Of a DNA stretch of 64,000 nt, positions 19,321 through 64,000 are shown in pieces. Position numbers and translations under genes: made by a program. This stretch comes from Bryobacteraceae bacterium (GTDB taxonomy: Bacteria > Acidobacteriota > Terriglobia > Bryobacterales > Bryobacteraceae). The stretch is from assembly GCA_041746955.1 (NCBI GenBank), contig JBGTFZ010000112.1, forward strand, positions 6,092 to 70,091, given 5' to 3'. The notes beneath the pieces are model-generated. The model ran no database searches. It was not told the origin of the DNA and saw only the letters and a list, made by a program, of their open reading frames with translations. Every line of letters starts with the position of its first letter. Position 1 is the stretch's first letter.

Positions 19321-19963
19321 GATCGTCCCCGGCCGCGGGCGCGGTATTGAGCAGTACACGTGGCGGGCTTTCATTCCCGACCTTCATGGAAATTCCGAAG
19401 GCGGTGGGCCGCTTTCCGGCCCGGGGATGGATGCGCAGCTATCCATGCTCGCCGCCGAGGCGGACCGACAGATGGGCGAAGCGTTCGAGAGGGGCCGCAA
19501 GGAGGGACGCGCCGAAGGGGAACGGGCAATGATGACCCAGTTGGACCCCGTCATCTCGCGCCTTTCAAAAACCATCGCTGAAGTCGCGTCGTCCGGAAGC
19601 GGTCTGCGGCGGCAGGCCGAAGAAGATGTCGTCAAGCTCTCGGTGGCGATCGCCCGGCGGATTCTGAACCGCGAACTGTCCATCGATCCCGACGCGATTA
19701 TGGGTCTCGTCAAATCGGCGCTCGGCAAGATCGAGGCTCGTGAGATACATCGAGTTCTTGCGAACCCGGAGGACGCGCCCCGGATTACCCGGGCGCTCGA
19801 CTCGCTTTCGCTGGTCGAAAAAATCAAGGTATCGGCGGACTCTGCGCTGGAGCGCGGAGCCGTCCTTTTTGAAACGTCCCGTGGCGTGCTCGACGCGTCG
19901 GTCGGCACCCAACTCGACGAGATTGAGCGTGGACTTACAGATCGCATTCGGGGGCGGGGATGA
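19310..19963 (+). CDS. fliH: Flagellar assembly protein FliH
   Basis: 217 aa. Located between fliG and fliI. The Glu/Arg-rich central helix and C-terminal domain fit FliH. The call rests mainly on position. Confidence 0.7.
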   Translation: MSSKIVPGRGRGIEQYTWRAFIPDLHGNSEGGGPLSGPGMDAQLSMLAAEADRQMGEAFERGRKEGRAEGERAMMTQLDPVISRLSKTIAEVASSGSGLRRQAEEDVVKLSVAIARRILNRELSIDPDAIMGLVKSALGKIEAREIHRVLANPEDAPRITRALDSLSLVEKIKVSADSALERGAVLFETSRGVLDASVGTQLDEIERGLTDRIRGRG

Positions 19964-21285
19964 CGGCGCCGGCCTGGAGTGTCGATCCGTACCTCCGCGC
20001 CCTCGACGGGATCGATCCCTTCCGCTGGTCCGGCAGAGTGACGGATCAGGTTGGGCTGCTGATCGAAAGTCTCGGCCCGGCGGCTTCAACCGGCGACTTC
20101 TGCGAAATTCTGATTCCCGGAAAAAACCCGGTTCGGGCCCAGGTGGTCGGCTTTCGAGATGGCCGCGTGCTCTCCATGCCGCTTGAAGACACCGATGGCC
20201 TATCGCTGGGCGCCACCGTCGTGGCCCGTCCGGAGGCGGCGAAAGTTGCCGTCGGACCCGGGTTGCTGGGCCGCGTCATTGATGGCTTCGGACTCCCGGC
20301 CGACGGAGGCCCAAGGTTTACCCCTGAAGCCCACTACGACCTCTACCGGACGCCGCCCGGACCGATGGATCGTGCTCACATCCAGGAGCAACTCGTTACG
20401 GGAATCCGCGCGATCGATGGATTTCTTCCCACCGGCAAAGGGCAGCGGGTTGGCCTCTTCGGAGGCTCGGGTGTGGGAAAAAGCACCCTTGTCGGATCGA
20501 TGGCCAGGAACAGCGATTCCGACGTCAGCGTCATCGCACTGATTGGCGAGCGCAACCGCGAGGTCCGCGCATTTATTGAGCATGAGCTGGGTCCGGAGGG
20601 TCTGGCGAAATCCGTCGTTGTCTGCGCAACCTCGGACCGGCCCGCGCCGCTGAAACTCCGCGCCTGTTTCGTCGCCTTGGCCATTGCCGAATATTTCCGG
20701 GACCAGGGCGGAAACGTGCTGTTGGTGATGGACTCGGTGACGCGTCTCGCCATGGCGCAGCGCGAGATTGGACTGGCCGCCGGGGAGCCGCCTTCGCAAA
20801 AAGGCTACACGCCCAGCGTCTTCAACCTGCTCCCCAAAATCTGCGAGCGCGCGGGAAAGTTTCCTCAAGGCTCCATCACCGGGTTCTTTACGGTTCTTGT
20901 CGAGGGCGACGACTTCAACGAGCCCATCTGCGACGCGGTAAGGTCGATCCTCGACGGCCACATCATGCTGTCGCGGGAACTGGGGCAAGCGGGGCACTAC
21001 CCGGCGATAGACATCCTGCAGTCGGTCAGCCGGTTGGCGGGCACACTCGCCGCACCGGAACAAAAACGGTCGGCCCAGGCGTTGCGCGAGGCCATGGCGG
21101 AGTACGACCGCGCCTCCGATCTGATCAACCTTGGCGCGTATGCGGCAGGCTCAAACCGCAAGATCGACGCCGCGATCCGGGCCCGCGACGACATCAACCA
21201 GTTTCTGCGGCAGGACGCCAATGAGCGGACGGCCTTCGAACAAACCCGGACCAGCATGGATCAACTGGCGGCGATGGTTGGATGA
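19960..21285 (+). CDS. fliI: Flagellum-specific ATPase FliI
   Basis: 441 aa. Walker A GGSGVGKST and Walker B LLVMDSVTR. F1/T3SS-ATPase architecture. Confidence 0.95.
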   Translation: MTAPAWSVDPYLRALDGIDPFRWSGRVTDQVGLLIESLGPAASTGDFCEILIPGKNPVRAQVVGFRDGRVLSMPLEDTDGLSLGATVVARPEAAKVAVGPGLLGRVIDGFGLPADGGPRFTPEAHYDLYRTPPGPMDRAHIQEQLVTGIRAIDGFLPTGKGQRVGLFGGSGVGKSTLVGSMARNSDSDVSVIALIGERNREVRAFIEHELGPEGLAKSVVVCATSDRPAPLKLRACFVALAIAEYFRDQGGNVLLVMDSVTRLAMAQREIGLAAGEPPSQKGYTPSVFNLLPKICERAGKFPQGSITGFFTVLVEGDDFNEPICDAVRSILDGHIMLSRELGQAGHYPAIDILQSVSRLAGTLAAPEQKRSAQALREAMAEYDRASDLINLGAYAAGSNRKIDAAIRARDDINQFLRQDANERTAFEQTRTSMDQLAAMVG

Positions 21286-21716
21286 AACGATTCGAATTCC
21301 GGCTTGCCCGCGCACAGGAAGTCCGGCGCATGCAGGCGGAAGTGGAACGGGAGAAACTACAGCGCCTTCTGGCGGCCGGCGAAACCTATCGCGGCAGGCT
21401 TGCCGCAATCGAAACCGAAAAGACGGCGACGTTCGATCTTCCGCTGACCCATCAGCCGCAGGCGGGAGCGTACCGCCGGCATCTTACGGCCACCGGCGAC
21501 AAGCTCCGTGGGGAACTCAGCCAACTGGAGACGCAGATCCAGGCTCAGCGAATGAAGGTGATCGAATCGGACCGGCGGACGGAACTTCTGGAGCGTCTAC
21601 GGAAGCGACGCTTCGCGGAATGGAGCGCCGGCTTCGCGCGCGAACTGGACGAACTGGCCTCCGACGCCCATCGCGCGCGTTTGCACGCCGCCCGAGCCCG
21701 TGTTGAGAAACGCTAG
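21282..21716 (+). CDS. fliJ: Flagellar export chaperone FliJ
   Basis: 144 aa coiled-coil protein immediately after fliI (ATGA overlap). The call rests on position and composition. Confidence 0.65.
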   Translation: MKRFEFRLARAQEVRRMQAEVEREKLQRLLAAGETYRGRLAAIETEKTATFDLPLTHQPQAGAYRRHLTATGDKLRGELSQLETQIQAQRMKVIESDRRTELLERLRKRRFAEWSAGFARELDELASDAHRARLHAARARVEKR

Positions 21717-23495
21717 GTACTCCGCCGGGTTCTTCGTCAGGCCCGGGAAGCTGGCCACCACCTTCTCTTCGGCGTCCAGGATGGCGTAGAACGGAATGGC
21801 CGCGTTGCCGAACATCTTCTCCTGGTAGGCCTGATTCTCCTCGCTGGCCGCATCCGTGCCATCGGTGTACAGTTCCAGCAGCACGAACCGGCCCAGCGCC
21901 TCGCGAATCTCCGGCCTCGGGAACATGTTGGCCTTCATCCAATGGCAATTCGTGCAGGCGTAGCCCGTGAAGTTGACGAAGATCATCTTGTTTTCGGCAC
22001 GAGCCTTCGCCAACGCACCCGGCAAGTCGTTCTTCAGCCACGCGGACTTCTCAGCAGACCCGGCATTAGCGCCAACACCAAACTGGCCCTCGGCGGGAAG
22101 CGGAACGTAGGCGTCCAACTCGCCCAAGCGGCCTCCAAACATTCCCGGAAGCAAACTGAACGCAAAGATGGCGAACAGCGCCCCGGCCAGGATACGGCCC
22201 GTCCCGGCGGGTTCATCCCTCTTGACGCCTTCCATTGGCAGCAGACCCAGCAGATACATGCCCGGCAGCAGGAAAAGCACGAACCATGCGGCCAGGAAAC
22301 GCTCCCGCGTCAGGAACCCCCACTGCATTACCTGATCGATATTTGCGACGTACTTCAGCGCGGCGGCCAGAATCACAAAACCCATCACCACCTTCACGCG
22401 GGCCAGCCATCCGCCGGAACGCGGCATGCTCTTCAACACGGAGGGGAACAGCGCGAGAAAGAAGAACGGCAGCGCCAGCCCGGTGGCGAACGCCATCATG
22501 CCGAACATCGGCTGCCAGCGGTTCCCGCTGACCGACGCGGCCAGCAGAGTGCCGACGAACGGCCCCACACATGCAAACGCAGTCAATGAAAATGTAAGCC
22601 CCATCAGTAGCGTGCCAGCCGTTCCGCCGGAGCCCGACGCGGAATTCAGCTTCGTCAACAGGCCCGACGGCAGAGTGATCTCGAAAGCGCCGAACATGCT
22701 GAAAGCCAGCGTGATGAAGATCGCCGCGATGAACGCGTTTACCCAGGGATTCGACGCGATCTGCACCACGCCGAACGGACCTAGCGCCGCCGTCAGCGCG
22801 ACCCCCAGAACCGTGAACAGCAGCACGATGCCCAGGCAGAACAAAAACGCCTGCGAGATTTGGCTCGCCCGCGAACGCCCTTCGGACTGTCCCAGGAAAA
22901 ACGACATCGTGATCGGAATCATCGGGAACACGCACGGCGTGAAAATCGCCGCCAATCCGAAGCCAAACGCGATCCAGAGAAACTGCGCCAATCCCTCATC
23001 CTGCGGCGATGGCGCGGGCACGGTAGACGTCGATGGAGCCACCGGAGCCGGGTCGCCCACCTTCAGAAATGTCGATGGCATCGGGGGCACGGCGCCTTGC
23101 ACGATCTCCACCGATTTGCGCTTTGGCGGAAGGCACAGCCGCTCCGTACACGCCTGATAGCGTATGCTGACTTCCGCGCCCGCCGGCACATCGCCTTTGA
23201 TGTAGAAGACGGCCTCGGTCTCAAACGTCTCGGTCTCCACGCCGAAATTCTCGTCCAGCTTCCGGATCGGCGCGGACTGCCAGATTTCGAGATTCTCGAC
23301 ACCCTCGATCTTCGCCGTCGTGGCGATCGGGGGCCGCGGCGTCGTCATCGAGTACAGATGCCACGGTGCGGTAATCGCAGCCGACAGCCGGATGATCTTG
23401 CCATCCGTAACGGCGGACCAGGCAACCGGATCGGGCGTCTTCGATTGCGGGAAGGACGAAAGCGCGCAGACGGCAAGGACCAGTGCGGTGCGCAT
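21597..23495 (-). CDS. DsbD-family protein-disulfide reductase (N-terminal DsbD-like domain, TM core, C-terminal thioredoxin)
   Basis: The start is taken at MRTALVLAV (23495). The TM Cys motifs are FTPCVFPMIP and FACVGPFVG. The C-terminal thioredoxin fold has YACTNCHWM (CxxC). The 3' end overlaps fliJ convergently by 120 nt. Confidence 0.8.
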   Translation of the reverse strand: MRTALVLAVCALSSFPQSKTPDPVAWSAVTDGKIIRLSAAITAPWHLYSMTTPRPPIATTAKIEGVENLEIWQSAPIRKLDENFGVETETFETEAVFYIKGDVPAGAEVSIRYQACTERLCLPPKRKSVEIVQGAVPPMPSTFLKVGDPAPVAPSTSTVPAPSPQDEGLAQFLWIAFGFGLAAIFTPCVFPMIPITMSFFLGQSEGRSRASQISQAFLFCLGIVLLFTVLGVALTAALGPFGVVQIASNPWVNAFIAAIFITLAFSMFGAFEITLPSGLLTKLNSASGSGGTAGTLLMGLTFSLTAFACVGPFVGTLLAASVSGNRWQPMFGMMAFATGLALPFFFLALFPSVLKSMPRSGGWLARVKVVMGFVILAAALKYVANIDQVMQWGFLTRERFLAAWFVLFLLPGMYLLGLLPMEGVKRDEPAGTGRILAGALFAIFAFSLLPGMFGGRLGELDAYVPLPAEGQFGVGANAGSAEKSAWLKNDLPGALAKARAENKMIFVNFTGYACTNCHWMKANMFPRPEIREALGRFVLLELYTDGTDAASEENQAYQEKMFGNAAIPFYAILDAEEKVVASFPGLTKNPAEYLAFLNTGSGGVQTRAMGVGGQFVQFAREAGAPFREASLP

Positions 23496-23505
23496 AACTT
23501 TATTG

Positions 23506-24537
23506 TCAGTCAGCGAAGGCACGGCTGGGTTTGGCGCTGCCGCTCCATTCGGAAAGCTCTTCCTCGATTCGCTGATTGATGCGGCCTTCGGCAAATTCCG
23601 CCGCCACCCGGATCGCATTCTTGATCGCGTTCGCGTTGGAGCGGCCATGGCAAATGATCGTGACGCCTTTGACGCCCAGCAGCGGCGCGCCACCATACTC
23701 GGAGTAATCCATGCGGCGCTTCAAGTCCGCGAATCCGTTTCGAGCAAGCACCGCGCCGATCTGGCGGCTGATCGTCGCCTCCAGCGATTGGCGCAGCATT
23801 TGCTTGATCACGTCGACGATGCCTTCGCTAACCTTCAGCGCCACGTTGCCCACGAAGCCGTCGCAAACCAGCACGTCCGCATACCCGGTGTAGACGTCGC
23901 GCCCTTCCACGTTGCCGATGAAATTGATGGGAAGACTCTTCAACAGGGGAAAGGCCTGGCGGGTAAGTTCGTTGCCCTTGTGTTCCTCTTCGCCGATCGA
24001 AAGAAGTCCGACGCGCGGACGGTCCGTCTGGAAGATCACGCGTGAATAGACTTCGCCCATCACCGCGAACTGCGCCAGCATCTGGGGTGAGCAATCCACG
24101 TTGGCGCCGACGTCAACCAGCACAGCGGGAGAGCCTTTGAGTGTGGGGAATGCCGTTGCGAGAGCGGGCCGCTCGACACCGCGAACCATGCCCTGAACCA
24201 GCTTCGCCGTAGCCATTACGGCTCCGGTGTTGCCGGCGGAGACCATGCCCTGGGCCGTGCCTTCACGCACCAGCCGGCAAGCCACCCGCATGGAGCTGTC
24301 GCGCTTCGTCCGCATAGCTTTCGCGGCGGAGTCCTCCATGGTGACCACTTCCGAGGCGTGATGCACCTCGATCGGCAGATTCCGCGCGCCTTGCTCCCGC
24401 AGCTCCTGATGGATCATGTCTTCCCGTCCCACGAGAATGACGCGAACGTTCAGAGCGCGGACCGCGCGTATCGCACCCTCGACTTCGGACTTGGGGGCAT
24501 GGTCGCCGCCCATAGCGTCGAGAGCGATCGTGATCAT
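23506..24537 (-). CDS. plsX: Phosphate acyltransferase PlsX
   Basis: [15 protein letters not shown]..., CDGFVGNV and HGRSN motifs. The start is chosen just downstream of the rpmF stop. Confidence 0.9.
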
Positions 24538-26018: not shown

Positions 26019-27143
26019 TTATTTTTTTGGAACGGCCGTGATTTCCTCCGCGGCCCACATCATCGCCCGCGGCACATGAAAGAATCCCTTGTAGGAATTG
26101 CCCTTTGCGTCGTGAGTGATGCGGCCCTCGCGCGACGCGTAGCCGAACCACTCTCCGAATTCGTCGTCGACGAACGTCCGCCACGCATACTCGTCAATAC
26201 GGTCCAGCCAGCCCGCCCACTTGGCATCGCCCGTGCGGCGCCATGCGTGGGCAAGCGCCAGAATCGCCTCCGTGTGCGGCCACCACAGCTTCATATCCCA
26301 CTCAAGTTCCAACATGGGCTTCGACTGCGTATCGAGAAAATAGAAAAGTCCGTCGTAGCGGCTGTCCCAACCCAGCTCCAGCGATCGCTGAATATTCATC
26401 AGCACGCGGTTGAACTTCGCGGTGTCGGGGAACTGGTCCAGGATGCGCAGCAGAAACCACGAAACTTCCAGCGCATGGCCGGGACACCACAGCCGGCCTG
26501 TTGGCGAATCGTCAAAGTGCGTCCGGTCCACCCGGATATTCTCGACAAACACGCCCAGCTCCGGATGCTGGTGCGCCAACGCCTCGTCCAGCATCTGGTT
26601 CAACAGTTCCGCATGGCGCGGATCGTCGTGGGATGGCATGATCTCCAGCAGCATGGAGATCGTCACCATTACGTCGGCCAGTTGCGACAGCCCGTGACGC
26701 GGGCGGCCCAGCAAGGTGGGGTCGGCAATCCACTCCCGGATCTTCCAGAACAGTGCGGCCGCATCATCCAGCGGTTCCTGCCGCGCCGCCGACCGTGCGT
26801 ATTCGGCCAACCCGATTGCCGCGAACACCGCGCCATATGGCTTGCGCTGAAAGGAAGCCGGGCTCCCGTTGCGATTCAACGAGAAGTAGAACCGCCCCTC
26901 CGGATCGCGTCCATGGCGCATCAGGAAATTCAGGACAGGCTCGGCAGCGGCAGTGTCGCCCAGCTTTGAGAACATCCAAACCGCGCGGCCCGCCATCCAG
27001 ACGTACTTTCGCTCGTCGTAGACGGCGCCGCCGCGATCGAGACAGCTCCAGAAGCCGCCGTAGCGCTGGTCGATCGCATGCGTCTTCCAGAAACGCTGCG
27101 AGCGCTTCAGTTGTTGAAGGTACTTTGCCGCCCGCTCAATCAA
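26019..27143 (-). CDS. N-acylglucosamine 2-epimerase (AGE) family protein
   Basis: 374 aa with an alpha/alpha-barrel-like repeat pattern. [11 protein letters not shown]...[13 protein letters not shown] and [10 protein letters not shown] are typical of AGE-family epimerases. Confidence 0.7.
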
Positions 27144-28552
27144 GCCAGCATCTTGTCGACCACGTTGCCGTGAACGTCCGTCAGCCGGAAGTCGCGGCCC
27201 TGGAACCGGTAGGTCAGGCGTTTATGATCGACGCCCAGACAGCGCAGCAGCGTCGCCTGAATATCGTGAATGTGGATGGGGTCCTGGACGATGTTGTAGC
27301 CGAAGTCGTCCGTTTCACCGATCACCGCGCCGCGCTTCAATCCACCTCCTGCGAACCACATCGTGAAGCATCGCGGGTGATGATCGCGCCCGTAGTTGGC
27401 GTCGGTCAACCGGCCCTGGCAGTACACCGTTCGGCCGAATTCGCCACCCCACACCACCAGCGTGTCGTCCAGCATTCCACGCTGCTTTAGGTCGGTGACC
27501 AGCGCCGCCGAGGGCTGATCGACAGCTTGCGCCTGAAGGCGAAGATCGCGCGGGAGTTCCGCATGCTGATCCCAACCGCGCTTGTAAAGCTGTATGAAGC
27601 GGACCCCACGCTCCGCAAGGCGACGCGCAAGCAGGCACTGCGACGCGTACGAACCGGGTTTGCGCGCGTCCGGCCCGTAGAGGTCAAACACGGATTCGGG
27701 TTCCGTGGACAGGTCCATCAGCTCCGGTACCGAGGTCTGCATCCGGTAGGCCATTTCGTACTGCGAGATTCGAGTCTCGATTTCCGGATCGCCAAAGATC
27801 TCGCTCCGCATGCCGTTCAGCGTCTTCAGCGAATCCAGCATGCGGCGGCGGGTCTCGCGATCGATGCCCGGAGGGTCGGAAAGGTAAAGCACCGGATCGC
27901 CGGAGGAGCGGAACTTCACTCCCTGATAGTTCGACGGCAGAAATCCGGAAGACCACAGCCGGGAGAACAGCGGCTGGTCGGTATTCAGTCCGCTGGCTTG
28001 GGAAAGCAGGACGACGAACGCCGGAAGATTTTCGTTCTCGCTTCCCAGTCCGTAGCTAACCCAGGACCCCAACGACGGCCGCCCGGGCTGCTGGCTGCCG
28101 GTTTGTATGAACGTGATTGCCGGATCGTGGTTGATCGCGTCGGTATGCACCGTCCGCACCAGCGTGATGTCGTCGGCGATCCCCGCGATATGCGGAACCA
28201 GATCACTAAACCAGGAACCGGCTTCGCCGTGCTGGGAGAACTTGAAAATCGTCGGCGCGACGGGAAGGGTCGACTGGCCAGACGTCATGCCGGTAATGCG
28301 CTGGCCCATGCGGATGGAATCCGGCAGATCGATTCCGCGCTTGGCGTCCAGCTTCGGCTTCCAATCGAAAAGGTCGTGCTGGGACGGGCCGCCGGACTGA
28401 TGTAGGAAGATGATCCGCTTCGCCTTCGGAGCGAAGTGCGGGATTCCAGGAAGCGACGCGCCCAGCGATTGCAGTGCGGCAAGTCCCAGACCCCCGGCTG
28501 TCCGGGAGAACAAGGCCCGGCGGGTCATCATGTTTTGAAGATCGTTCCGCAT
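27140..28552 (-). CDS. DUF1501 domain protein (sulfatase-like fold, Tat signal)
   Basis: The twin-arginine N-terminus is [19 protein letters not shown]. It also has ..GGRDHH-like RDHHPRCF and FRLTDVHG at the C-terminus. It follows its DUF1553 partner directly. Confidence 0.8.
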
Positions 28553-28554
28553 CG

Positions 28555-31500
28555 CTATTCCTTCGTGACCGCCTCGTCGAGATTCAGAATGACGCTGGCG
28601 ATTGTCGTCCACGCGGCCAGTTGTGCTCGGTTCAGTTCCTTCGGCGTCTCGATTTCGCCGTTCGACAGCAGCCTGTCCACGCCCTCGGGAAAATTGCGAT
28701 AGACGGCCAGTTGATCGCGATACTGGCGGGCAAGCAGGTCGCGTTCGGCACGTTGCGGCGCGCGGCTAAGCGCGGTGCGGAACCCGAACGCCAACGGATC
28801 CTTACCGCCTTCGATCATCATTCTGGCGGCCAGCGCCCGCGAAGCTTCAACGTACGTTGTGTCGTTCAGCAGCACCAGCGCTTGCAGCGGAGTGTTGGTC
28901 AACGACCGCCGCCCGGTGCACTTCTCTCGATCCGGCGCGTCGAACGTTGCAAGGCCCGGCGGCGGCGCGGTCCGCTTCCAGAACGTGTAGAGGGACCGCC
29001 GGTAAAGGGCGTCGCCATGATCCTGCTCGAAAATTTGAGAGGAGAACGTATCGCCGTACGCGATGTCTTCCCACACGCCCTTCGGCTGATAAGGATTCAC
29101 GGACGGCCCGCCGACCTTGGCGTTTAGCAGCCCACTCGACGCTAGCGCACTGTCGCGGATGGCCTCGGCGGGAAGACGGAAGCGGGGACCACGGGCCAGC
29201 AACCGGTTCTCCGGATCTTTCTCCAGCAACGCGGGAGTCGAGCGGGACGATTGCCGGTAAGCCGCCGACATCACGATCGTCTTCTGCATCGCCTTGATGT
29301 CCCAGCCGCTGGTCCGGAACTCGGTCGCCAGCCAATCCAGCAGTTCAGGGTGAACGGGAAACTCACCCTGGCTGCCGAAGTCTTCGCCAGTCTTCACGAT
29401 GCCGTGTCCAAAATACATTTGCCAGAAACGATTCACCGCGACGCGCGCGGTTAGCGGATGATCCGGCGACAGCAGCCACTGCGCAAGGCCCAGCCGGTTT
29501 TGCGGCGCCCCGGCGGGCAGCGGCGGAAGGAAGCTGGGAACGCCTGGCGTTACCGTTTCTGTGCCGTTGCGGTAATCGCCGCGGCCGAGAATCTTCGTCT
29601 CGCGCGGGATCGCCATTTCCGACATCACCATCGAGGTGGGAATCTGATACTGAAGTTCGTCGCGCTCGTCGTAGAGACTGTTCAACCGACGGTTGAGGGT
29701 GCGCAAGTCTTGGGGCGCGCCGTTCTCGAAGAAGAAATCAAGCAACGCCAAGCGCTGATCGGTTGACCGTTGCTTTGCCGGAATCCGCAGCGTCGATTGG
29801 GCCGGTTGAGTCACCGCCAGAAATTCAATCTCCGCAGGGTCGAGACCGCGCGAATAAAGGCGCAGGTCGTCCAGCGAAGCGCGAATCCAGCGCTCGGGCG
29901 CCGCTTCATCAATATCGGTCAGCTCGACGCGCGCGTTGTTAATGTAGATCGCCGGCTGCGGCTGAGACAGGTTCACCGCGGTGTGCACCCACGGTCCCGT
30001 CACGGTCTCCGTCTTCGTGCGGTAGGTGCGGCCCCCCGTAGAAATGTAGAAGCGAGATCCGCGCCGGTTGCGGCCAATCGCGCGGCCGCCGTCGATCCAG
30101 AACGTGAAGGATGCGCCTTGCAGCAGCGTGCTGGGCCGGTTGTCGAGACGCGCGCTGACTTTCGTCCAAAGCGCAAACGCGGCGGCGTCTCCAACGCCGG
30201 GAAGGTCAACCAAAGATCTCTCGTCCAGCGCGATACCCTGTCCGTCGGCACCAGCAACAAACCCCGGCTCACCCTTCGTGATGCGCCCATGCTGGTAGTG
30301 GCCGCTGATGTCTTCTAGCGATCCGTCGAACGAATAGTGCGCAATCAGGCCCGATGCATCGGAACGCGGACGCGGCTTGTCGGCCTGCTCCTCTTCCCAC
30401 GCCTTGCGCAGGCCGGTAATTCCGGAGCGGTCCATCTCGGCTTCGGCCTTCGCAATGTCCGACGAAAGGCGGTCTACCTGCGCCTGCTGCGATTCATCCG
30501 GCAGCATTAGGAACGGCCGCGCATTTCCTTTCTGCCCGTCCAAACCCTTCTCGCTCACGGTATTGAAGAAGGCGAACATCCGGTAAAAATCTTTCTGCCG
30601 GATCGGATCGTATTTGTGATCGTGGCAACGGGCGCAGCCGGTGGTCAGCCCCAGAAACGCGGTGGATGTCGTCTCGACGCGATCGACGACATACTCGACC
30701 AGATACTCCTCGGGAATTGCGCCGCCCTCGTAGTTAATCATGTGGTTCCGGTTGAAGCCGGTTGCGATCAACTGCTCCCGCGTCGGATTCGGCAGCAGGT
30801 CGCCCGCAAGCTGCCAGGTCAGAAATTTGTCGTAAGGAAGATTTCGATTGAAGGCGTCGATCACCCAATCGCGCCAGGGCCACATCTCGCGGCTTGAATC
30901 GATGTGATAGCCATGCGTGTCCGCGTAGCGCGCCATGTCCAGCCACGGCACCGCCATGCGTTCGCCATAAGCTGGGGACGCTAGCAGCCGGTCAACGACG
31001 CGCTCATAGGCGGCCGGTGACTTGTCGCGCAGGAACGCGCCTAGCTCATTCGACGACGGAGGCAGTCCGGTTAGATCCAGAGTGACGCGGCGCAGAAGCG
31101 TCGCGCGGTCTGCCTGCGGCGATGGCTTCAACCCTTCTTTCTCCAGCCGCGACAGGATGAAGTGGTCGATGCCGTTGTCCGGCCAGGAATCGTTCTTGAC
31201 CGCCGGAGGGTCGATGGCCTTCGGAGGGTCGAAGCTCCAATGGGTCTTAAATGGTGCGCCTTGCGCCACCCACGCCTGAAGAGTCTTCACCTGCGGCGGC
31301 GTCAGTTCCGCCGTGCTGGGCGGCGGCATTCGCAGCGCCTTCTTCTCGTGCGTGATTCGCGCCACCAGTTTGCCGGAGTCGATTGCCGCGCGCGCACCGT
31401 CTTCCGTGTCCAGTCGAAGGTTCGCCATGCGATGCGCCTCATCCGGGCCGTGGCACGCGAAACAGCGGTCGGACAACAGCGGACGCACGTCGCGGATGAA

Positions 31501-31569
31501 GTCGATTTTGGCTGCGGTTTGCGCAGTGGCCGATAAGGCCAGCAGAGAACCGGCAAGCAGGTACTTCAT
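28555..31569 (-). CDS. PSCyt1/DUF1549/DUF1553 (PSD1) family protein with internal LamG-like insert
   Basis: 1004 aa. It has a signal peptide and a cytochrome-like [21 protein letters not shown]. It also has the DUF1549 block [11 protein letters not shown] and a DUF1553 C-terminus. Confidence 0.8.
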
Positions 31570-49733: not shown

Positions 49734-50608
49734 TCGCACGGTCGATTCTTAGTCCGGTAACCGGCTTCCTTCGCGAGGCCGGTTTCACACACTCCCTTAC
49801 GCCGGCGCGCAATTGCACGTTTGGTTGCACGTATTGTTACGTGCCGACGCTTCGGATCTACGCGGGACTTCAGCGCGAGGACTGGTTGCGCTGGGGCCAG
49901 TTCACGACGTTCAAGGACAACGCGGCCCAGCTGTTGGCGCGCGAGCTTCGAGCGGACCAGCGCGTCTACTGCTCGCCGTTGGTGGATCCCTACCAGCCGG
50001 AGGAAGCGCAGCGCAGGCTGATGCCGGAAATTCTCGCTTCACTGGCCGGTCGTCCACCGGCGGTGTTTTGCCTACAAACCCGGGGACCATTGATATTGCG
50101 TGATACGGAACTTCTCTCGCGGATTCCCGGAATGCGCGTCAGCTTCTCCGTCACTACGAATCGCGAAAGTATCCGCCGCTTGTATGAGCCGCATTGCGCA
50201 TCTTTTGAGGAACGTCTTGCTGTGATCCGGCTGCTTCGCAGCGCGGGTCTGAACGTGTTCGCCACGCTTGCGCCATTGCTGCCATGCGATGCGGAGGAAC
50301 TTGCAGAAGCGGCTCTAGAAGCCACTGGCAACGATCTGATCGGCGATCCGCTGCATGTCTGGGGCGTCAAGAAAACAGGTGCGACCACAAGGCCGGAGGC
50401 ATTCAAAATCGCGGCGCGCCAAGGCCACGCGCAATGGATAGACCCGGAATTTCAGAATGAGATCGTTCAGCGAATCGCAGCCACTGCCGCGACCGCCGGG
50501 CGTCGATTCATTACCGGACCTGCGGGCTTCGCGCTGCTTTCGCGCGCGAGTTGCGTACCTACTCAGGCAGCGACAGAGCGACCAGAGCGGACCCTGCGCC
50601 CATCGTGA
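49730..50608 (+). CDS. Radical SAM protein (SplB / Rv2578c-like)
   Basis: The CxxxCxxC motif is CTFGCTYCY. The start is uncertain: TTG 49730 overlaps the upstream stop, or ATG 49679. Confidence 0.7.
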   Translation: MIARSILSPVTGFLREAGFTHSLTPARNCTFGCTYCYVPTLRIYAGLQREDWLRWGQFTTFKDNAAQLLARELRADQRVYCSPLVDPYQPEEAQRRLMPEILASLAGRPPAVFCLQTRGPLILRDTELLSRIPGMRVSFSVTTNRESIRRLYEPHCASFEERLAVIRLLRSAGLNVFATLAPLLPCDAEELAEAALEATGNDLIGDPLHVWGVKKTGATTRPEAFKIAARQGHAQWIDPEFQNEIVQRIAATAATAGRRFITGPAGFALLSRASCVPTQAATERPERTLRPS

Positions 50609-52142
50609 CGTACTGCCGTCCGTTCACTTCGTAGGTGATCGGCGCGCCCTTCATCTGAAAGCCGAGATTCAGCTTCCAAAGCAGCGATCCGTTCTTGGCG
50701 TCCAGGGCGAAGATGTATCCGTCCACATCCGTTGCGAAGATCAGGCCGCCTCCGGTCGACAAGACGCCGGACCAGGGAGACTTGGCGAGCTTGAACTCCC
50801 ACTTCGTCTCGACGGTTTTCGGATCGATTGCGCGGATGAATCCGTACTCTTTCTCCTCCGTCAACCCGCGAAACACGCTTCCCCAATAGGCCTTGCCTTC
50901 GATGTATTGCGGCGCCGCTTCATAGAAAATGTCGCACTGTTCGCGAACCGAAAAATAGAACCAGCCGGTGGTGGGATTCAATGCCGACGGCATCCAGTTG
51001 GTTCCGCCCACCAGACCGGGGCACACGCTGCTGCCTTCCTTTGACGGCTTACTGGCCGGGATCTCCACCGGGCGGCCCTTGTCGTCGATCTCCCGCGCCC
51101 AATTCTGCTTCACGAAAGGTTTCGCCATCAGGAACTCACCCGTCACGCGGTCCAGCAGGTAGAAAAAGCCGTTGCGGTTCGCGTGAAGAAGCAGCTTCCG
51201 TTGCTTGCCCTGAAATTCCATGTCGGCCAGCATCGGCGTTTGGTTTGCGTCCCAGTCGTGCGTGTCGTGCGGCGTGTACTGAAAGTGCCATTTCAACTCG
51301 CCTGTATCCGGGTTCAGCGCCAGATCGGAGCAAGTGTAAAGGTTGTCGCCCTTGCGAGCATCGCCGTAGAGATCGGGACCCGGATTCCCTACCGACCAGT
51401 ACAGAGTGTCCAACTGCGGATCGTAAGTGCCGGTCATCCAAGTGGGTCCGCCGCCGCGCTTCCACGAATCCCCGGACCATGTATCGCCGCCCGGCTGCCC
51501 CGGCTCGGGCACCGTGTAGAAGCGCCACAGACGCTTGCCCGTCGCCGGATCGTATGCATCGATGAAGCCACGGATTCCGTATTCGCCGCCGCCGATTCCT
51601 GCGATAACTTTGTCCTTCACCACCAGGGGGGCAACGGTGGCGCCGTAGCCTTTCTTGTTGTCCTCCATCTGGACATTCCAAATCATTTGGCCCGTGCGCG
51701 CGTCCAGCGCCAGGATGTGCGCGTCCGGCGTGGTCATAAACAGGCGGTTGCCGAGAATTGCGAATCCGCGGTTCACGTTGCCGTTCGGCAGCAGCTCGCC
51801 TTTCGGCACAGGGTAAGTGAACTTCCACAGCTGCCGTCCGCTGCGGGCGTCGATGGCGAACGCCACGCCGCCGGACGCGGTGAAGTACATGATGCCGTCT
51901 ACGACTAAAGGTGTGGATTGAAACTCGCCGGGCTGGTTCGTCTGAAAGATCCAATCGACGCGCAGATCCTTCACGTTCGACGCGTTGATCTGGTTCAGCT
52001 CACGATGCCGGCGGCCGGAGTAGTCTCCGAAGTACGTCATCCAGTTCTGCTGTTCGTCCAGAGCGTTCTTCAAACGGTTGAACGACACGTCCTGCGCGGG
52101 CGCGGCAAGCGTAGCCGCAAGAATGATGAGTGCAAATCGCAT
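50559..52142 (-). CDS. PQQ-dependent dehydrogenase (methanol/ethanol family)
   Basis: The start is at MRFALIILAATLAAPAQD (52142), overlapping the upstream stop as TAATG. It has the repeated W-motif beta-propeller pattern, e.g. WKF, WRF, WHF. Confidence 0.85.
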   Translation of the reverse strand: MRFALIILAATLAAPAQDVSFNRLKNALDEQQNWMTYFGDYSGRRHRELNQINASNVKDLRVDWIFQTNQPGEFQSTPLVVDGIMYFTASGGVAFAIDARSGRQLWKFTYPVPKGELLPNGNVNRGFAILGNRLFMTTPDAHILALDARTGQMIWNVQMEDNKKGYGATVAPLVVKDKVIAGIGGGEYGIRGFIDAYDPATGKRLWRFYTVPEPGQPGGDTWSGDSWKRGGGPTWMTGTYDPQLDTLYWSVGNPGPDLYGDARKGDNLYTCSDLALNPDTGELKWHFQYTPHDTHDWDANQTPMLADMEFQGKQRKLLLHANRNGFFYLLDRVTGEFLMAKPFVKQNWAREIDDKGRPVEIPASKPSKEGSSVCPGLVGGTNWMPSALNPTTGWFYFSVREQCDIFYEAAPQYIEGKAYWGSVFRGLTEEKEYGFIRAIDPKTVETKWEFKLAKSPWSGVLSTGGGLIFATDVDGYIFALDAKNGSLLWKLNLGFQMKGAPITYEVNGRQYVTMGAGSALVALSLPE

Positions 52143-52927
52143 TAGTGAATTCCTTTGGCCCGCTTCGCCGGTCCGGTAGCAGTGATGTTCGCCCGCAACG
52201 AGTCCAGGTACGCCAACAGGTTGTCGAGATCCGCACCGGAAAGTTGAGCGTACGCGGGCATCAACGATTTCGGCGCCGCCTGCACCTCCCGCAACTCCGC
52301 GCGCTTGTCGAACATCCGGAATTTGCCAGCCTGATCGCGAAGCTGAAGCGTGAAGGTGTCCTCGTTCACTTTCAACCCCTGCACTTTGCGTCCGTCCTTC
52401 AGTACCGCGACGACGCCCTCCCATTCCTGAGGAATATCCGTGGAAGGATTGACGATCGATTCTCGAATGTACCCGGCGGACCGCGCCACTCCGATGCGGC
52501 TAAGGTCGGGGCCGAAGACGCTGCCCTCGCTCTGAATTGCATGGCAGCCCGCGCAGCCGGACTTCGCGTAGATCCCCTTGCCCGCGTCTGCATTGCCTCT
52601 CAGGGGCGGCGAATCCGCTCCGGCATTCGCGAACGCGTTCGTGTATTCGGCAAGACGGTCCAGTTCGTCTTCCAGAAAGTTGGCGAATGCGGGCATCGTG
52701 CTGCCGGGGATGCCTTGGCTGATGACGCGTTTTACATCTCCAACCGTATTGCCATGGTTGCGGCGCCCGGTAAGATCCGGACCTCGTCCGCCCTTACCGC
52801 TTAGTCCATGGCAGAACGCGCAGTTGGAACGGTATAGAGAATCGCCTTCCGCATTCGGGTTTCCGACGGCGGGATGTTGTGCGCTCGCCCACGGGGCGGC
52901 CAGAAGGAGAAAACAGATTGGCTTCAT
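52142..52927 (-). CDS. Di-haem cytochrome c
   Basis: 261 aa with a signal peptide and two CxxCH motifs (CAFCH, CAGCH). Translationally coupled to the PQQ dehydrogenase. Confidence 0.85.
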   Translation of the reverse strand: MKPICFLLLAAPWASAQHPAVGNPNAEGDSLYRSNCAFCHGLSGKGGRGPDLTGRRNHGNTVGDVKRVISQGIPGSTMPAFANFLEDELDRLAEYTNAFANAGADSPPLRGNADAGKGIYAKSGCAGCHAIQSEGSVFGPDLSRIGVARSAGYIRESIVNPSTDIPQEWEGVVAVLKDGRKVQGLKVNEDTFTLQLRDQAGKFRMFDKRAELREVQAAPKSLMPAYAQLSGADLDNLLAYLDSLRANITATGPAKRAKGIH

Positions 52928-61622: not shown

Positions 61623-61976
61623 GGGGGCGCAACGGTTTCGACGGGATTGATTCGTCGTGGAGAGGCGTGCCGGGTTCCGAGCTCCCGTTAAACGATCGGA
61701 AAACCATAACTGCCAACACGCAGTTTGCATACGCTGCCTAATTAAATAGGCATGCCGCCTAACCGGGTCAGCCCGATGGCCTGGGGACGGCGTCTTAATT
61801 CGGGATAGGTGATGTTTCTTCGGTCCGTAGCCGCATCGCCAAAACTCAACCGGACTAGGTTGCGGCTTTCTCGCCGGTTCTTAGGTCGTGACCGAAACAA
61901 CCGAACCGCGCTACGCACGTAGGCTCTTCAGGACAGGCCTTCTCGGACGGGGGTTCAACTCCCCCCGCCTCCACCA
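61623..61976 (+). ncRNA. ssrA: tmRNA (SsrA)
   Basis: The 5' end is GGGGGCGCAACGGTTTCGACGGG. The 3' end has a T-arm GGGGGTTCAACTCCCCC followed by CGCCTCC-ACCA. The acceptor stem pairs GGGGGCG with CGCCTCC, including the G3:U wobble. The internal tag ORF GCC AAC ACG CAG TTT GCA TAC GCT GCC TAA (61712-61741) encodes ANTQFAYAA. Confidence 0.9.
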
Positions 61977-62485: not shown

Positions 62486-63712
62486 ATGCTTCGTTACGCC
62501 GCGCTTGCCGCGTGTCTCGGATCTTTTGCCGCCTCCGCCCAGGACGCAATACGCTGGGTGGACAGCTACAAGGAAGCCCGGGAGCAGGCCAAGCGCACTG
62601 GCAAACCGATCTTCCTGGAGTTTCGCTGCGAGGCTTGAATCGCCGGCAGAGTTTTCGACGCACAGGTTGTGCTGTCGCCGCCCGATTCGCCCCGTGGAAA
62701 ACTAATGCAGCAATACGTGTGCGTGCGTATAGCGCGCATGGACGACGTCGATATTGGCCTGTTTGAATACGACCGCTACAACACGCTGTACTTCTTCATT
62801 CTGAATGCCGACGAGCAGATTTATCTTCGCTACGGCGGACGCGACACCTCGCAGGATACTTACCTTAGCCTCGACAGTCTGGAGCTTGCGCTGTCGAAAG
62901 GCCTCCAGCTACACCAGCAGTTCCAGAGGGGCAAACTGCCGAAGGCCGCGCGGCCACAGCCGAAGTTCGCGCGTGACATTCCTCTCCTGGTGGAGCGCAC
63001 CTACGCCCGCAACAGTTGCGTCGAATGCCACCTGATCGGCGATTTCAACTTGCAGCACAAGGAACTGGAAGGGACGTTGAACAAGCCGCAGGACATGTTC
63101 CGTCCCGCCGACATACGTGCCGCCGGAGTCTATCTTGACGTGCCGAAGGGCCTGCTAGTGAAAGAAGCGAAGGGTGCTGTCGCCGACGCCGGGCTGCTGC
63201 CCGGTGACCGCATCGCGAAGCTGAACGATACCGTGCTGTGGACCTTCGCCGACTTGCAGCATGCCTACGACAAGCTGCCGCGAAGCGAGACAGCGATGCG
63301 GTTGGCCGTGGTCCGGCAGGGCAAGATCGTCGACCTTGCCGTGGCGCTGCCGAAGTTGTGGTGGTTCTCCGACATTCGCTACAAGCAGTTGACCGTCGAT
63401 CCGCGCGTGTACTTTGAAACGCGTCCGCTGGCGGTTGAAGACAAGCGGAAGCTGGGGCTGGATCCCGAAGGGTTCGCCGCCGAGGTGAAGTATGTCAGCG
63501 CGATGGCCAAGGCGCTTCAGCTTCACGAGCTTCGAACGGGCGACATCATCATCGCCGTCGATGGAAAAAGCAAGGATGATTTGGCGGACACGCCGGAGCT
63601 TTTCATCCGGCTGCGAACTAAGGCGGGCGACTCCGCCCAACTGGATCTGATTCGCGACGGCCAGCCCGTCAAAATGGAATTGAAGACGTCAAGGATGAGC
63701 TTTCGAAAATGA
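62486..63712 (+). CDS. Secreted thioredoxin-fold / double-PDZ protein with in-frame TGA at the redox motif (candidate selenoprotein, or else a pseudogene)
   Basis: ATG 62486 gives MLRYAALAACLGSFAASAQDAIRWVDSYKEAREQAKRTGKPIFLEFRCEA, then TGA (62636-62638). The same frame continues IAGRVFDAQVV...QYVCVRIARMDD... to 63712. The thioredoxin fold spans the TGA. PDZ-like segments include GLLPGDRIAKLND and LRTGDIIIAVDG. Confidence 0.55.
62656..62677 (+). promoter_or_regulatory. Candidate bacterial SECIS hairpin
   Basis: CGACGCAC-AGGTT-GTGC(T)GTCG forms an 8-bp stem with one bulged U and an apical loop AGGUU. The loop begins 25 nt after the UGA. Confidence 0.4.
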
Positions 63713-64000
63713 ATCTTGCAATCGCGCTGATGCTGCTTGGCGGAGAGTGGAGCGCCCCGGCGGAAATCCGGAACGACGAGACGCTGTGCCTGACCTACCG
63801 TGCGCGCTTTACCGGATCGCACCTAGTGGTGGAGATCCAGCCGGAACCTGGATGGCATACGTTCTCCATGGACAACAAGCAGAGGCAGACGGCCGCGTTG
63901 CAGGGCAGGATGTCGTTGGGTTCCGAGAAGCCGACTACCGTCGTGGTGACCGAAGGGTTGACCATCGCCGGCCCATGGCGGCAGACAGCGCCCGAAGATT
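63709..64000 (+). CDS. DsbD N-terminal-domain-like protein, 5' partial (runs off window)
   Basis: ATG 63709 overlaps the upstream stop (ATGA). MNLAIALMLLGG...LVVEIQPEPGWHTFSMDN... has the GWH(T/I)Y/F pattern of DsbD-type N-terminal domains. It stays open to the window end. Confidence 0.5.
   Translation, partial: MNLAIALMLLGGEWSAPAEIRNDETLCLTYRARFTGSHLVVEIQPEPGWHTFSMDNKQRQTAALQGRMSLGSEKPTTVVVTEGLTIAGPWRQTAPED

What the first reader, a model, noticed from the sequence alone, without database searches (positions are those of the whole stretch)
62486..63712. In-frame TGA exactly at the second Cys position of a thioredoxin-fold CxxC motif: candidate CxxU selenoprotein
A 50-codon ORF too short for the track encodes a signal peptide and the first strand and motif of a thioredoxin fold, ..GKPIFLEFRCEA. 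It stops at TGA 62636-62638. The same frame then continues without another stop for 357 codons, through IAGRVFDAQVV...QYVCVRIARMDD and two PDZ-like domains. The thioredoxin fold is thus split by the TGA, so neither half makes sense alone. C-E-A-TGA sits where thioredoxin-like proteins have CxxC, and known thioredoxin-fold selenoproteins use CxxU or UxxC. A hairpin lies at 62656-62677: CGACGCAC / AGGUU loop / GUGC-U-GUCG. It has an 8-bp stem, a bulged U and G residues in the apical loop, which begins 25 nt after the UGA. This is within the spacing and shape reported for bacterial SECIS elements. The next gene (63709 onward) encodes a DsbD-N-terminal-like domain, giving a thiol-redox context.
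Basis: partly seen in the sequence, partly recalled or inferred. Interest (0 to 1): 0.75.

Follow-up and report, generated by a model that had tools for sequence, protein, structure and literature searches.

The report
Known Trx7/PDZ selenoprotein gene with SECIS
The in-frame TGA is almost certainly a real selenocysteine codon in a secreted thioredoxin-like/PDZ protein, with its RNA insertion hairpin just downstream, but this selenoprotein family is already catalogued, so the find is correct and ordinary.

Summary
A 50-codon ORF (62486-62635) ends at TGA 62636-62638, and the same frame runs 357 more codons to 63709.

With the TGA read as Cys, the protein scores 400.8 bits (cutoff 300) on NCBIfam NF041199, "Trx7/PDZ domain-containing (seleno)protein". 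Two reviews list this family as a CxxU selenoprotein. They trace it to the 2008 GOS study.

All 94 related loci where the site could be read have an in-frame stop at this codon. The codon was read as TGA in 92 of them. Cys-form homologues have CxxC at the same position.

Its 20-nt core is almost invariant in 79 distinct sequences. The six codons inside it are frozen (98.8-100% one codon, against about 0.6 elsewhere). It meets every rule of the published bacterial SECIS model.

Not tested: selA, selB, selC and selD were not found among the ORFs scanned in the window, and the rest of the genome is out of reach.

Additional points:
- A DsbD_N-like gene with an invariant Cys pair is coupled downstream in all 15 genomes and is fused to the protein in some relatives.
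- A CxxCH motif is conserved in every family member examined.

Verdict: interpretation supported, already known, low interest.

The parts
62486..63712 (+). Complete Trx7/PDZ selenoprotein gene. It has 408 sense codons with Sec at codon 51, and the terminal stop is TGA 63710-63712.
   Evidence: The frame is open apart from one TGA. NF041199 scores 400.8 bits against a cutoff of 300, covering residues 23-400.
62486..62539 (+). Predicted signal peptide (MLRYAALAACLGSFAASA, cleavage after ASA)
   Evidence: Judged by eye from the sequence. Equivalent hydrophobic N-termini are present in all 15 genomic orthologues. No signal-peptide predictor was run.
62552..62737 (+). Thioredoxin_7 domain match, which spans the TGA
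   Evidence: Pfam PF13899, E = 1.4e-07, 32.0 bits (cutoff 27), residues 23-84.
62627..62638 (+). Redox motif C-E-A-U: TGC GAG GCT TGA, with the Sec codon at 62636-62638
   Evidence: An in-frame stop is present here in 94/94 readable related loci, read as TGA in 92. It aligns to the second Cys of CVPC in the Cys-form P0125 and to CxxC in other homologues.
62656..62677 (+). Bacterial SECIS hairpin. It has 4 + 4 base pairs with a bulged U at 62673, and an AGGUU apical loop at 62664-62668. The A and the last U of the loop can pair, leaving a GGU triloop.
   Evidence: RNAalifold predicts it independently. Pairing holds in 98.4% of cells across 79 sequences, and the closing pair is U-A in 61, C-G in 9 and U-G in 1. 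The six codons inside it are 98.8-100% fixed. MFE is -9.5 kcal/mol. It meets the bSECIS rules given in PMC13188914.
63017..63031 (+). CxxCH motif (CVECH, residues 178-182). This is a possible heme c or metal site.
   Evidence: The motif is invariant in 16 orthologues. It is retained in every distant Cys-form examined, including three that lost the CxxC, and in six further representatives that start near or after the Sec position. No cytochrome HMM support was found.
63128..63346 (+). PDZ domain 1 (approximate bounds)
   Evidence: Pfam PDZ_6 covers residues 230-258. The AlphaFold model has pLDDT above 85 here. Foldseek matches the tandem PDZ domains of DegP, DegQ and RseP.
63413..63685 (+). PDZ domain 2 (approximate bounds)
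   Evidence: Pfam PDZ_2 covers residues 347-400, E = 9.2e-12. Also supported.
63709..64000 (+). 5' part of the translationally coupled DsbD_N-like gene, cut off by the end of the window. The full length is 168 aa in L001.
   Evidence: The ATG overlaps the upstream stop (ATGA). Pfam DsbD_N scores 27.3 bits against a cutoff of 25. The gene is present downstream in all 15 genomes, and its start overlaps the upstream stop in 13. An invariant C-x4-C pair is present. It is fused to the upstream protein in P0125 and P0122.

Best explanation
Window 62486-63712 is one gene for a secreted selenoprotein of the catalogued Trx7/PDZ family.

How the UGA is decoded (inferred from the established bacterial pathway):
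- UGA 62636-62638 is decoded as selenocysteine.
- The hairpin at 62656-62677 lies inside the coding sequence and acts as the bacterial SECIS.
- SelB-GTP carrying Sec-tRNA(Sec) binds the apical GGU loop and bulged U. This places the tRNA at the UGA, which sits 25 nt upstream of the loop.

What the product is:
- It has a signal peptide and a DsbD-gamma-like thioredoxin domain whose active site is C-E-A-U. Relatives have CxxC at that position.
- A linker region carries an invariant CxxCH motif.
- Two PDZ domains follow.

How it probably works (inferred):
- The Cys/Sec pair cycles between a selenylsulfide and the reduced form.
- It exchanges electrons with the co-translated DsbD-alpha-like protein encoded immediately downstream. 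This resembles the gamma-to-alpha step of DsbD.
- The PDZ domains are presumed to recruit a partner or substrate.

What is shown: gene structure, family membership, conservation of the TGA, RNA-level constraint on the hairpin, the Cys/Sec correspondence, and linkage and fusion with the DsbD_N-like gene.

What is inferred: actual Sec insertion, periplasmic location, direction of electron flow, and the role of the PDZ domains and CxxCH.
For: Family membership:
- NF041199 'Trx7/PDZ domain-containing (seleno)protein' scores 400.8 bits against a cutoff of 300.
- Pfam finds Thioredoxin_7 plus PDZ domains.
- Reviews list the family as CxxU with one Sec. They cite the GOS study, whose only unmatched CxxU entry is 'putative secreted serine protease MucD'.

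Conservation of the codon:
- All 120 top database homologues are N-terminally truncated at 335-359 aa. This is how gene callers treat a Sec codon.
- TGA is at the identical codon in 15 species-level genomes and in 77 metagenome loci. Two more loci show an in-frame stop there. No locus has any other codon.

Cys/Sec correspondence:
- Full-length relatives have CxxC at this position.
- Sec aligns to Cys in a 555-column alignment with P0125, E = 7e-151.

The hairpin:
- RNAalifold recovers it.
- 98.4% of cells are paired, and sliding the partner by one column drops this to 12-13%.
- The closing pair covaries between U-A and C-G.
- Codons D-A-Q-V-V-L are 98.8-100% one codon in 85 distinct coding sequences, against roughly 0.35-0.9 at the other conserved residues.
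- Loop of 5 nt with G at positions 2-3, a 4-bp upper stem, 25-nt spacing and -9.5 kcal/mol all satisfy the published bSECIS constraints.

Other points:
- The same gene ends in a TGA that has no hairpin after it, so TGA is not generally a sense codon here.
- The partner gene is conserved, overlapping and sometimes fused.
- Acidobacteria are recorded as having selenoproteins.
Against: - No selA, selB, selD or tRNA-Sec was found in the window. ARAGORN and Rfam found only a tmRNA. None of the 20 largest ORFs is one of these genes. Smaller ORFs were not scanned, and the rest of the genome cannot be searched with these tools.
- No Rfam family matches the hairpin, even at E <= 10.
- The window's 71-nt context is not unusually stable (z = -0.52).
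- Most stem pairs are invariant, so covariation rests on a single pair.
- The link between NF041199 and the GOS 'MucD' entry is inferred from the reviews' citation and the shared CxxU motif. The GOS sequences were not compared.
- No selenium incorporation data exist for this family in the literature searched.
Confidence: 0.93

Rival explanations
1. Two separate genes. The UGA is a true stop that yields a 50-residue secreted peptide, and a PDZ protein initiates downstream (GTG 62669 or ATG 62705). This is how gene callers annotate it.
For: Public gene calls split the locus this way. L001 has a 50-aa gene and a 335-aa gene, and all 120 top database entries are truncated.
Against: - The Thioredoxin_7 match and the NF041199 match both run straight across the TGA.
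- The stretch between the TGA and any downstream start (IAGRVFDAQVVLSP...) is strongly conserved as protein in frame.
- Cys-form homologues are single continuous proteins.
- There is no conserved start codon after the TGA. Homologue calls start at different points, giving lengths of 335, 348, 354 and 358 aa.
Confidence: 0.03
2. Stop-codon read-through without selenium. The conserved hairpin stimulates near-cognate or Cys insertion at UGA, giving a CxxC or CxxW protein.
For: The Sec machinery could not be shown in this genome. A hairpin downstream of a stop can stimulate read-through in other systems (general knowledge).
Against: - The hairpin fits the SelB-type model precisely: GGU loop, bulged U and 25-nt spacing.
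- The site is the redox Cys position, where Cys/Sec exchange is the known pattern.
- If Cys were wanted, TGC is one mutation away, yet none of the 94 loci uses it.
Confidence: 0.03
3. A nonsense pseudogene or a sequencing or assembly error at 62636-62638.
For: Nothing specific. This is the default reading of an in-frame stop.
Against: - An independent assembly (Logan SRR28170461 contig, L001) has the identical sequence.
- The same stop occurs in 94/94 related loci from many projects.
- Both halves remain under protein-level constraint.
Confidence: 0.01

Closest known systems
NCBIfam NF041199, Trx7/PDZ domain-containing (seleno)protein. The reviews list it as 'PDZ domain-containing protein (Thioredoxin_7), CxxU'. 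It is probably the 'putative secreted serine protease MucD' selenoprotein of Zhang & Gladyshev 2008.
   Same: - Full-length match above the curated cutoff.
- Same architecture: N-terminal Thioredoxin_7 followed by PDZ domains.
- Same CxxU motif with one Sec.
- Both Sec and Cys forms exist.
   Different: Nothing in the defining features differs. Three features seen here are not mentioned in the literature I could search:
- an obligatory downstream DsbD_N-like partner;
- natural fusions of the two proteins;
- a CxxCH motif conserved in every member examined.

The equation with the GOS 'MucD' entry rests on the reviews' citation and the shared motif, not on a sequence comparison.
E. coli fdhF-type bacterial SECIS and the bSECISearch consensus model
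   Same: - The hairpin lies within the coding sequence just 3' of the UGA.
- It has a small apical loop with GG/GU, a bulged U next to a 4-bp upper stem, 25-nt spacing and an MFE of -9.5 kcal/mol.
- By my recollection the fdhF upper stem-loop (UGCA-GGUC-UGCA with a bulged U) is closely similar. This was not tested here.
   Different: - The bulged U is on the 3' side of the stem here. In fdhF it is on the 5' side (from memory).
- No Rfam model matches the hairpin.
- SelB binding was not tested.
DsbD (gamma thioredoxin-like domain and alpha N-terminal domain)
   Same: - The Thioredoxin_7-type domain has a CxxC/U motif.
- The partner is a DsbD_N-type domain with a conserved Cys pair. The two are adjacent, co-translated and sometimes fused.
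- This matches the gamma-to-alpha thiol-disulfide relay of DsbD. That Thioredoxin_7 is the DsbD-gamma domain type is from my own knowledge.
   Different: - The cassette has no membrane (beta) domain. The only DsbD-like membrane protein in the window is about 40 kb away, at 21597-23696.
- The extra PDZ domains and the CxxCH motif are absent from DsbD.
- Sec replaces one of the Cys residues.
HtrA/DegP/DegQ (MucD) and RseP tandem PDZ modules
   Same: The C-terminal half matches their tandem PDZ domains in both sequence and predicted fold.
   Different: There is no protease domain. The old 'serine protease MucD/Do' names come from PDZ similarity only.

Membership tests
NF041199 Trx7/PDZ (seleno)protein | Whole-protein HMM score above NCBI's curated cutoff (300 bits) with end-to-end coverage | tested here: met
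   400.8 bits, E = 5.9e-120, residues 23-400 against profile positions 2-389 of 390 (Sec entered as Cys).
NF041199 Trx7/PDZ (seleno)protein | N-terminal Thioredoxin_7 domain followed by PDZ domains | tested here: met
   PF13899 scores 32.0 bits (cutoff 27). PDZ_2 scores 45.5 bits and PDZ_6 scores 28.8 bits. The fold matches tandem PDZ structures.
NF041199 Trx7/PDZ (seleno)protein | CxxU (or CxxC) at the thioredoxin active-site position | tested here: met
   C-E-A-U at 62627-62638. Homologues have CVPC, CIPC, CEQC or CDPC at the same position.
Bacterial selenoprotein gene | In-frame UGA aligned with Cys in homologues and conserved as UGA in orthologues | tested here: met
   An in-frame stop is present in 94/94 readable loci, read as TGA in 92. 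The Cys alignment is shown.
Bacterial selenoprotein gene | bSECIS: 3-9 nt apical loop, 4-16 bp upper stem, G in the first two loop positions, 16-37 nt from the UGA to the loop, MFE <= -7.5 kcal/mol (PMC13188914, Fig. 2) | tested here: met
   The AGGUU loop is 5 nt and fits the N1-G-[G|U]-N-N2 pattern. The upper stem is 4 bp, followed by a bulged U and 4 more bp. Spacing is 25 nt and MFE is -9.5 kcal/mol. The hairpin is conserved and partly covarying.
Bacterial selenoprotein gene | selA, selB, selC (tRNA-Sec) and selD present in the same genome | not testable with these tools
   Only 64 kb is available. No tRNA-Sec was found. None of the 20 largest ORFs is a sel gene, and smaller ORFs were not scanned. 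Acidobacteria as a phylum are recorded with selenoproteins.
Bacterial selenoprotein gene | Selenium actually incorporated at the UGA | not testable with these tools
   This needs 75Se labelling or mass spectrometry.
DsbD-like gamma/alpha thiol-disulfide relay | DsbD_N (alpha) domain with a redox Cys pair partnered with the thioredoxin-like domain | tested here: met
   PF11412 scores 27.3 bits (cutoff 25). C136 and C141 are invariant. The gene is adjacent in 15/15 genomes, and fusions exist.
DsbD-like gamma/alpha thiol-disulfide relay | Membrane electron-transfer (beta, DsbD/CcdA) domain in the same protein or operon | tested here: not met
   The cassette has only two genes and its flanks vary between genomes. 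A DsbD-like ORF lies about 40 kb away in the window and scores below cutoff (186 bits against 330).
c-type cytochrome | CxxCH heme-attachment motif in an exported protein | tested here: met
   CVECH is at 63017-63031. The motif is invariant in orthologues and kept in every distant homologue examined. The signal peptide is inferred by eye.
c-type cytochrome | Recognisable cytochrome c domain by profile or fold | tested here: inconclusive
   No cytochrome family appears at E <= 1 for the whole protein. One of five segments gave sub-threshold hits (Cytochrome_C554, 17.4 bits against a cutoff of 20.8). PDB sequence and fold searches return only PDZ proteins.

The most novel reading that the evidence does not exclude
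The CxxCH motif persists even in family members that have lost the CxxC/U. This suggests the Trx7/PDZ proteins carry a covalently bound heme c.

If so, the cassette would be an uncharacterised periplasmic redox module. It would couple a heme centre to a Cys-Sec (selenylsulfide) thioredoxin site and a DsbD-alpha-like partner.

This would be a split, membrane-domain-less DsbD-like relay, in which the PDZ domains select the client.
Probability: 0.2. Interest if true: 0.5.

Novelty: already known. Interest (0 to 1): 0.15.

Why it matters
For this window the practical consequence is an annotation fix. Public gene calls split the locus into a 50-aa ORF and an N-terminally truncated 'PDZ protein / serine protease Do'. 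The correct call is one 408-residue selenoprotein.

The family is very common in soil and freshwater Acidobacteria (Bryobacterales and Solibacterales-type MAGs). Among the close relatives sampled, every one uses Sec. It is therefore a good marker that these lineages decode selenocysteine.

Its function has not been studied. Three features give concrete handles for experiments: the conserved DsbD_N-like partner, the natural fusions and the conserved CxxCH motif. None of them changes the fact that the selenoprotein itself is already catalogued.

Tried and rejected
- Rfam, at gathering thresholds on the whole window and at E <= 10 on 62500-62800, found only the tmRNA and noise. No SECIS family matched.
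- Folding 71 nt around the site was not significant (z = -0.52). I relied on comparative evidence instead.
- The exhaustive representative search and the structure tools refuse the read-through protein with U changed to C. I used the 357-residue part after the Sec codon instead.
- A scan of the window for other TGA-interrupted ORF pairs with coding-like GC3 gave no second convincing CxxU or UxxC candidate.
- ARAGORN on the window and on all 96 loci found no tRNA-Sec.
- NCBIfam scans of the 20 largest window ORFs found no selA, selB or selD.
- A PDB sequence search and a Foldseek search on the model returned only PDZ-containing proteases. They gave nothing for the thioredoxin remnant or the CxxCH linker.
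- Pfam on the isolated CxxCH segments was inconclusive.
- The NrfA-like cytochrome c552 and the SnoaL-like neighbours are not conserved in other genomes. I therefore rejected a functional link to them.

Full report
**Observation.**
- An ATG at 62486 opens a 50-codon ORF, MLRYAALAACLGSFAASAQDAIRWVDSYKEAREQAKRTGKPIFLEFRCEA. It stops at TGA 62636-62638.
- The same frame continues for 357 codons to a second TGA at 63710-63712.
- The hairpin CGACGCAC/AGGUU/GUGC-U-GUCG lies at 62656-62677. Its loop starts 25 nt after the UGA.
- The next ORF starts at ATG 63709 and overlaps the stop (ATGA).

**What the protein is.** I entered the Sec position as Cys and scanned the 408-residue product.
- Pfam matches Thioredoxin_7 at residues 23-84, straight across codon 51, and finds two PDZ regions.
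- NCBIfam gives an end-to-end hit to NF041199, "Trx7/PDZ domain-containing (seleno)protein". This is an equivalog model. The score is 400.8 bits against a curated cutoff of 300.
- The other NCBIfam hits (DegP, DegQ, HtrA, RseP, MamP) are far below their cutoffs and cover only the PDZ regions.

**Literature.** The family is already catalogued.
[quoted passage not shown] - The 2026 review cites Zhang & Gladyshev 2008 for this entry, and I take the 2022 review's reference [64] to be the same paper. That paper reports a new CxxU family called "putative secreted serine protease MucD", with 2 Sec sequences and 12 Cys homologues (PMC2398784). I take this to be the same family, based on the citation and the motif. 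I did not compare the sequences.
- No paper in the library says anything about its function.

**Is the TGA real and conserved?**
- An independent assembly (a Logan contig, L001) has the identical sequence.
- The 120 best database homologues are all 335-359 aa and cover only 82-88% of the query. They begin after the TGA position. This is the signature of gene callers truncating at a Sec codon.
- In 15 species-representative genomes the codon is TGA in every case. All are Acidobacteria MAGs labelled Bryobacteraceae, Solibacteraceae, Candidatus Solibacter, Sulfopaludibacter or similar. The context is F/Y-R-C-E-A/P-TGA.
- In 80 metagenome loci, 77 show TGA, two more show an in-frame stop there, and one contig is cut off before the site.
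- No locus has TGC or TGT, or any other codon.
- More distant full-length relatives (about 28-42% identity) carry CxxC at this position: CVPC, CIPC, CEQC or CDPC.
- In a 555-column alignment with P0125 the Sec position aligns to the second Cys of CVPC.
- The gene's own terminator is a TGA that is not followed by the hairpin. TGA is therefore not a general sense codon in this organism.

**Is the hairpin a SECIS?**
It adds an A-U pair that closes a GGU triloop.
- Across 79 distinct sequences, 98.4% of cells pair. Sliding the 3' partner by one column drops this to 12-13%.
- Seven of the eight pairs are essentially invariant.
- The closing pair is U-A in 61 sequences, C-G in 9, U-G in 1 and unpaired in 8. 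The covariation score exceeded all 500 shuffles.
- One genome (L007) has a changed 3' arm and can re-pair with the bulge on the other side.
- The strongest evidence is at synonymous sites. In 85 distinct coding sequences, the six codons inside the hairpin (Asp GAC, Ala GCA, Gln CAG, Val GTT, Val GTG, Leu CTG) are 98.8-100% one codon. At the other conserved residues the commonest codon takes roughly 0.35-0.9, typically about 0.6.
- GCA and GTT look like minor codons for a 60% GC genome (GC), so the constraint appears to act on the RNA. I did not measure codon preference.
- The published bacterial SECIS model requires a 3-9 nt loop, a 4-16 bp upper stem, G in the first two loop positions, 16-37 nt of spacing and MFE <= -7.5 kcal/mol.
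- The values here are a 5-nt AGGUU loop, a 4-bp upper stem plus 4 more pairs below a bulged U, 25-nt spacing and -9.5 kcal/mol. All the rules are met.
- Rfam has no matching family. The wider 71-nt fold is not unusually stable.

**What could not be shown.**
- The window contains no tRNA-Sec.
- None of its 20 largest ORFs is selA, selB or selD. Smaller ORFs were not scanned.
- None of the fetched loci contains a tRNA-Sec.
- The only outside support is that Acidobacteria are recorded with selenoproteins (PMC1794560).
- This is the main reason confidence is 0.93 and not higher.

**Context and likely mechanism.**
- The downstream gene is 168 aa in L001 and matches Pfam DsbD_N above threshold.
- It has a signal-peptide-like N-terminus and an invariant C-x4-C pair.
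- It follows the selenoprotein gene in all 15 genomes. In 13 of them its start overlaps the upstream stop. The overlap explains why the final Lys codon AAA is 96.5% fixed.
- Other neighbours are not conserved.
- Single polypeptides exist that carry both proteins. P0125 is a CxxC form. P0122 is truncated exactly at the Sec site, so it is presumably a Sec form.
- From general knowledge, Thioredoxin_7 is the domain type of DsbD-gamma and DsbD_N is DsbD-alpha.
- The simplest model is therefore a soluble periplasmic gamma/alpha-like thiol-disulfide relay, in which Sec replaces the resolving or attacking Cys.
- No membrane electron-input domain is part of the cassette. A DsbD-like membrane protein lies about 40 kb away in the window and scores below cutoff.
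- The AlphaFold model of the post-Sec part has mean pLDDT 81.7, above 90 over most of the PDZ domains.
- PDB sequence and fold searches show a DegP/RseP-like tandem PDZ and nothing else recognisable.

**An unremarked feature.**
- A CxxCH motif (CVECH, 63017-63031) is invariant in the orthologues.
- It is retained in every distant homologue examined, including three that have lost the CxxC (P0192, P0228, P0230).
- In an exported protein this is the heme c attachment motif.
- No cytochrome profile supports this, however. I record it as a hypothesis only.

**Verdict.** The locus is a routine member of a curated, published selenoprotein family. It is mis-split in public gene calls. Novelty: already known. 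Interest: low (0.15). The residual novelty lies in the unstudied biochemistry of the family: the partner protein, the fusions and the CxxCH motif.

Noticed in passing
window 63017-63031 (residues 178-182): A CxxCH motif (CVECH) is invariant in the orthologues and kept in every distant homologue examined, even those that lost the CxxC/U redox motif. It may be a covalent heme c site or a metal site. It is not mentioned in the literature found.
   Followed up: partly
window 63709-64000 (full gene at L001:2042-2548): A DsbD_N-like gene with an invariant C-x4-C pair is translationally coupled to the selenoprotein gene through an ATGA overlap. It is present downstream in 15/15 genomes. The two proteins occur as single fused polypeptides elsewhere (P0125, P0122).
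   Followed up: yes
window 63698-63709: The C-terminus of the selenoprotein is invariantly S-F-R-K. The last codon AAA is 96.5% fixed, which is explained by the overlapping start of the next gene. The reason for the invariant peptide is unknown. It might be a PDZ ligand.
   Followed up: no
window 61623-61976 (+): A tmRNA gene (ssrA) is present. Rfam RF00023 scores 165.5 bits, and the tag peptide is ANTQFAYAA.
   Followed up: yes
window 21597-23696 (-): A 699-aa DsbD-like membrane protein scores 186 bits on NF001419, below the cutoff of 330. It also resembles the DsbD part of selenoprotein TsoB. It is a candidate electron donor for the cassette but lies about 40 kb away.
   Followed up: no
window 16601-21285 (+): A flagellar gene cluster is present: fliF, fliG and an ATPase of the FliI/YscN family (above cutoff only for that subfamily model). 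SecY is at 3455-4870.
   Followed up: no
window 27140-31569 (-): Two large ORFs (490 aa and 1004 aa) have no NCBIfam match at E <= 1e-5.
   Followed up: no
window 50559-52424 (-): A PQQ-dehydrogenase-like protein also matches the 'acido-empty-quinoprotein group A' model (571.5 bits, cutoff 650). This is consistent with an acidobacterial origin for the window.
   Followed up: no
L001:2684-4135 (-), just beyond the window's end: An NrfA-type cytochrome c552 gene lies next to the cassette in this organism. The adjacency is not conserved in the other 15 genomes.
   Followed up: yes
L007:3150-3171: This is the one orthologue with a changed 3' arm of the SECIS (CUCACA in place of CUGUCA, Ser to Thr). 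It can still form a stem, with the bulge moved to the 5' side (-6.7 kcal/mol).
   Followed up: partly
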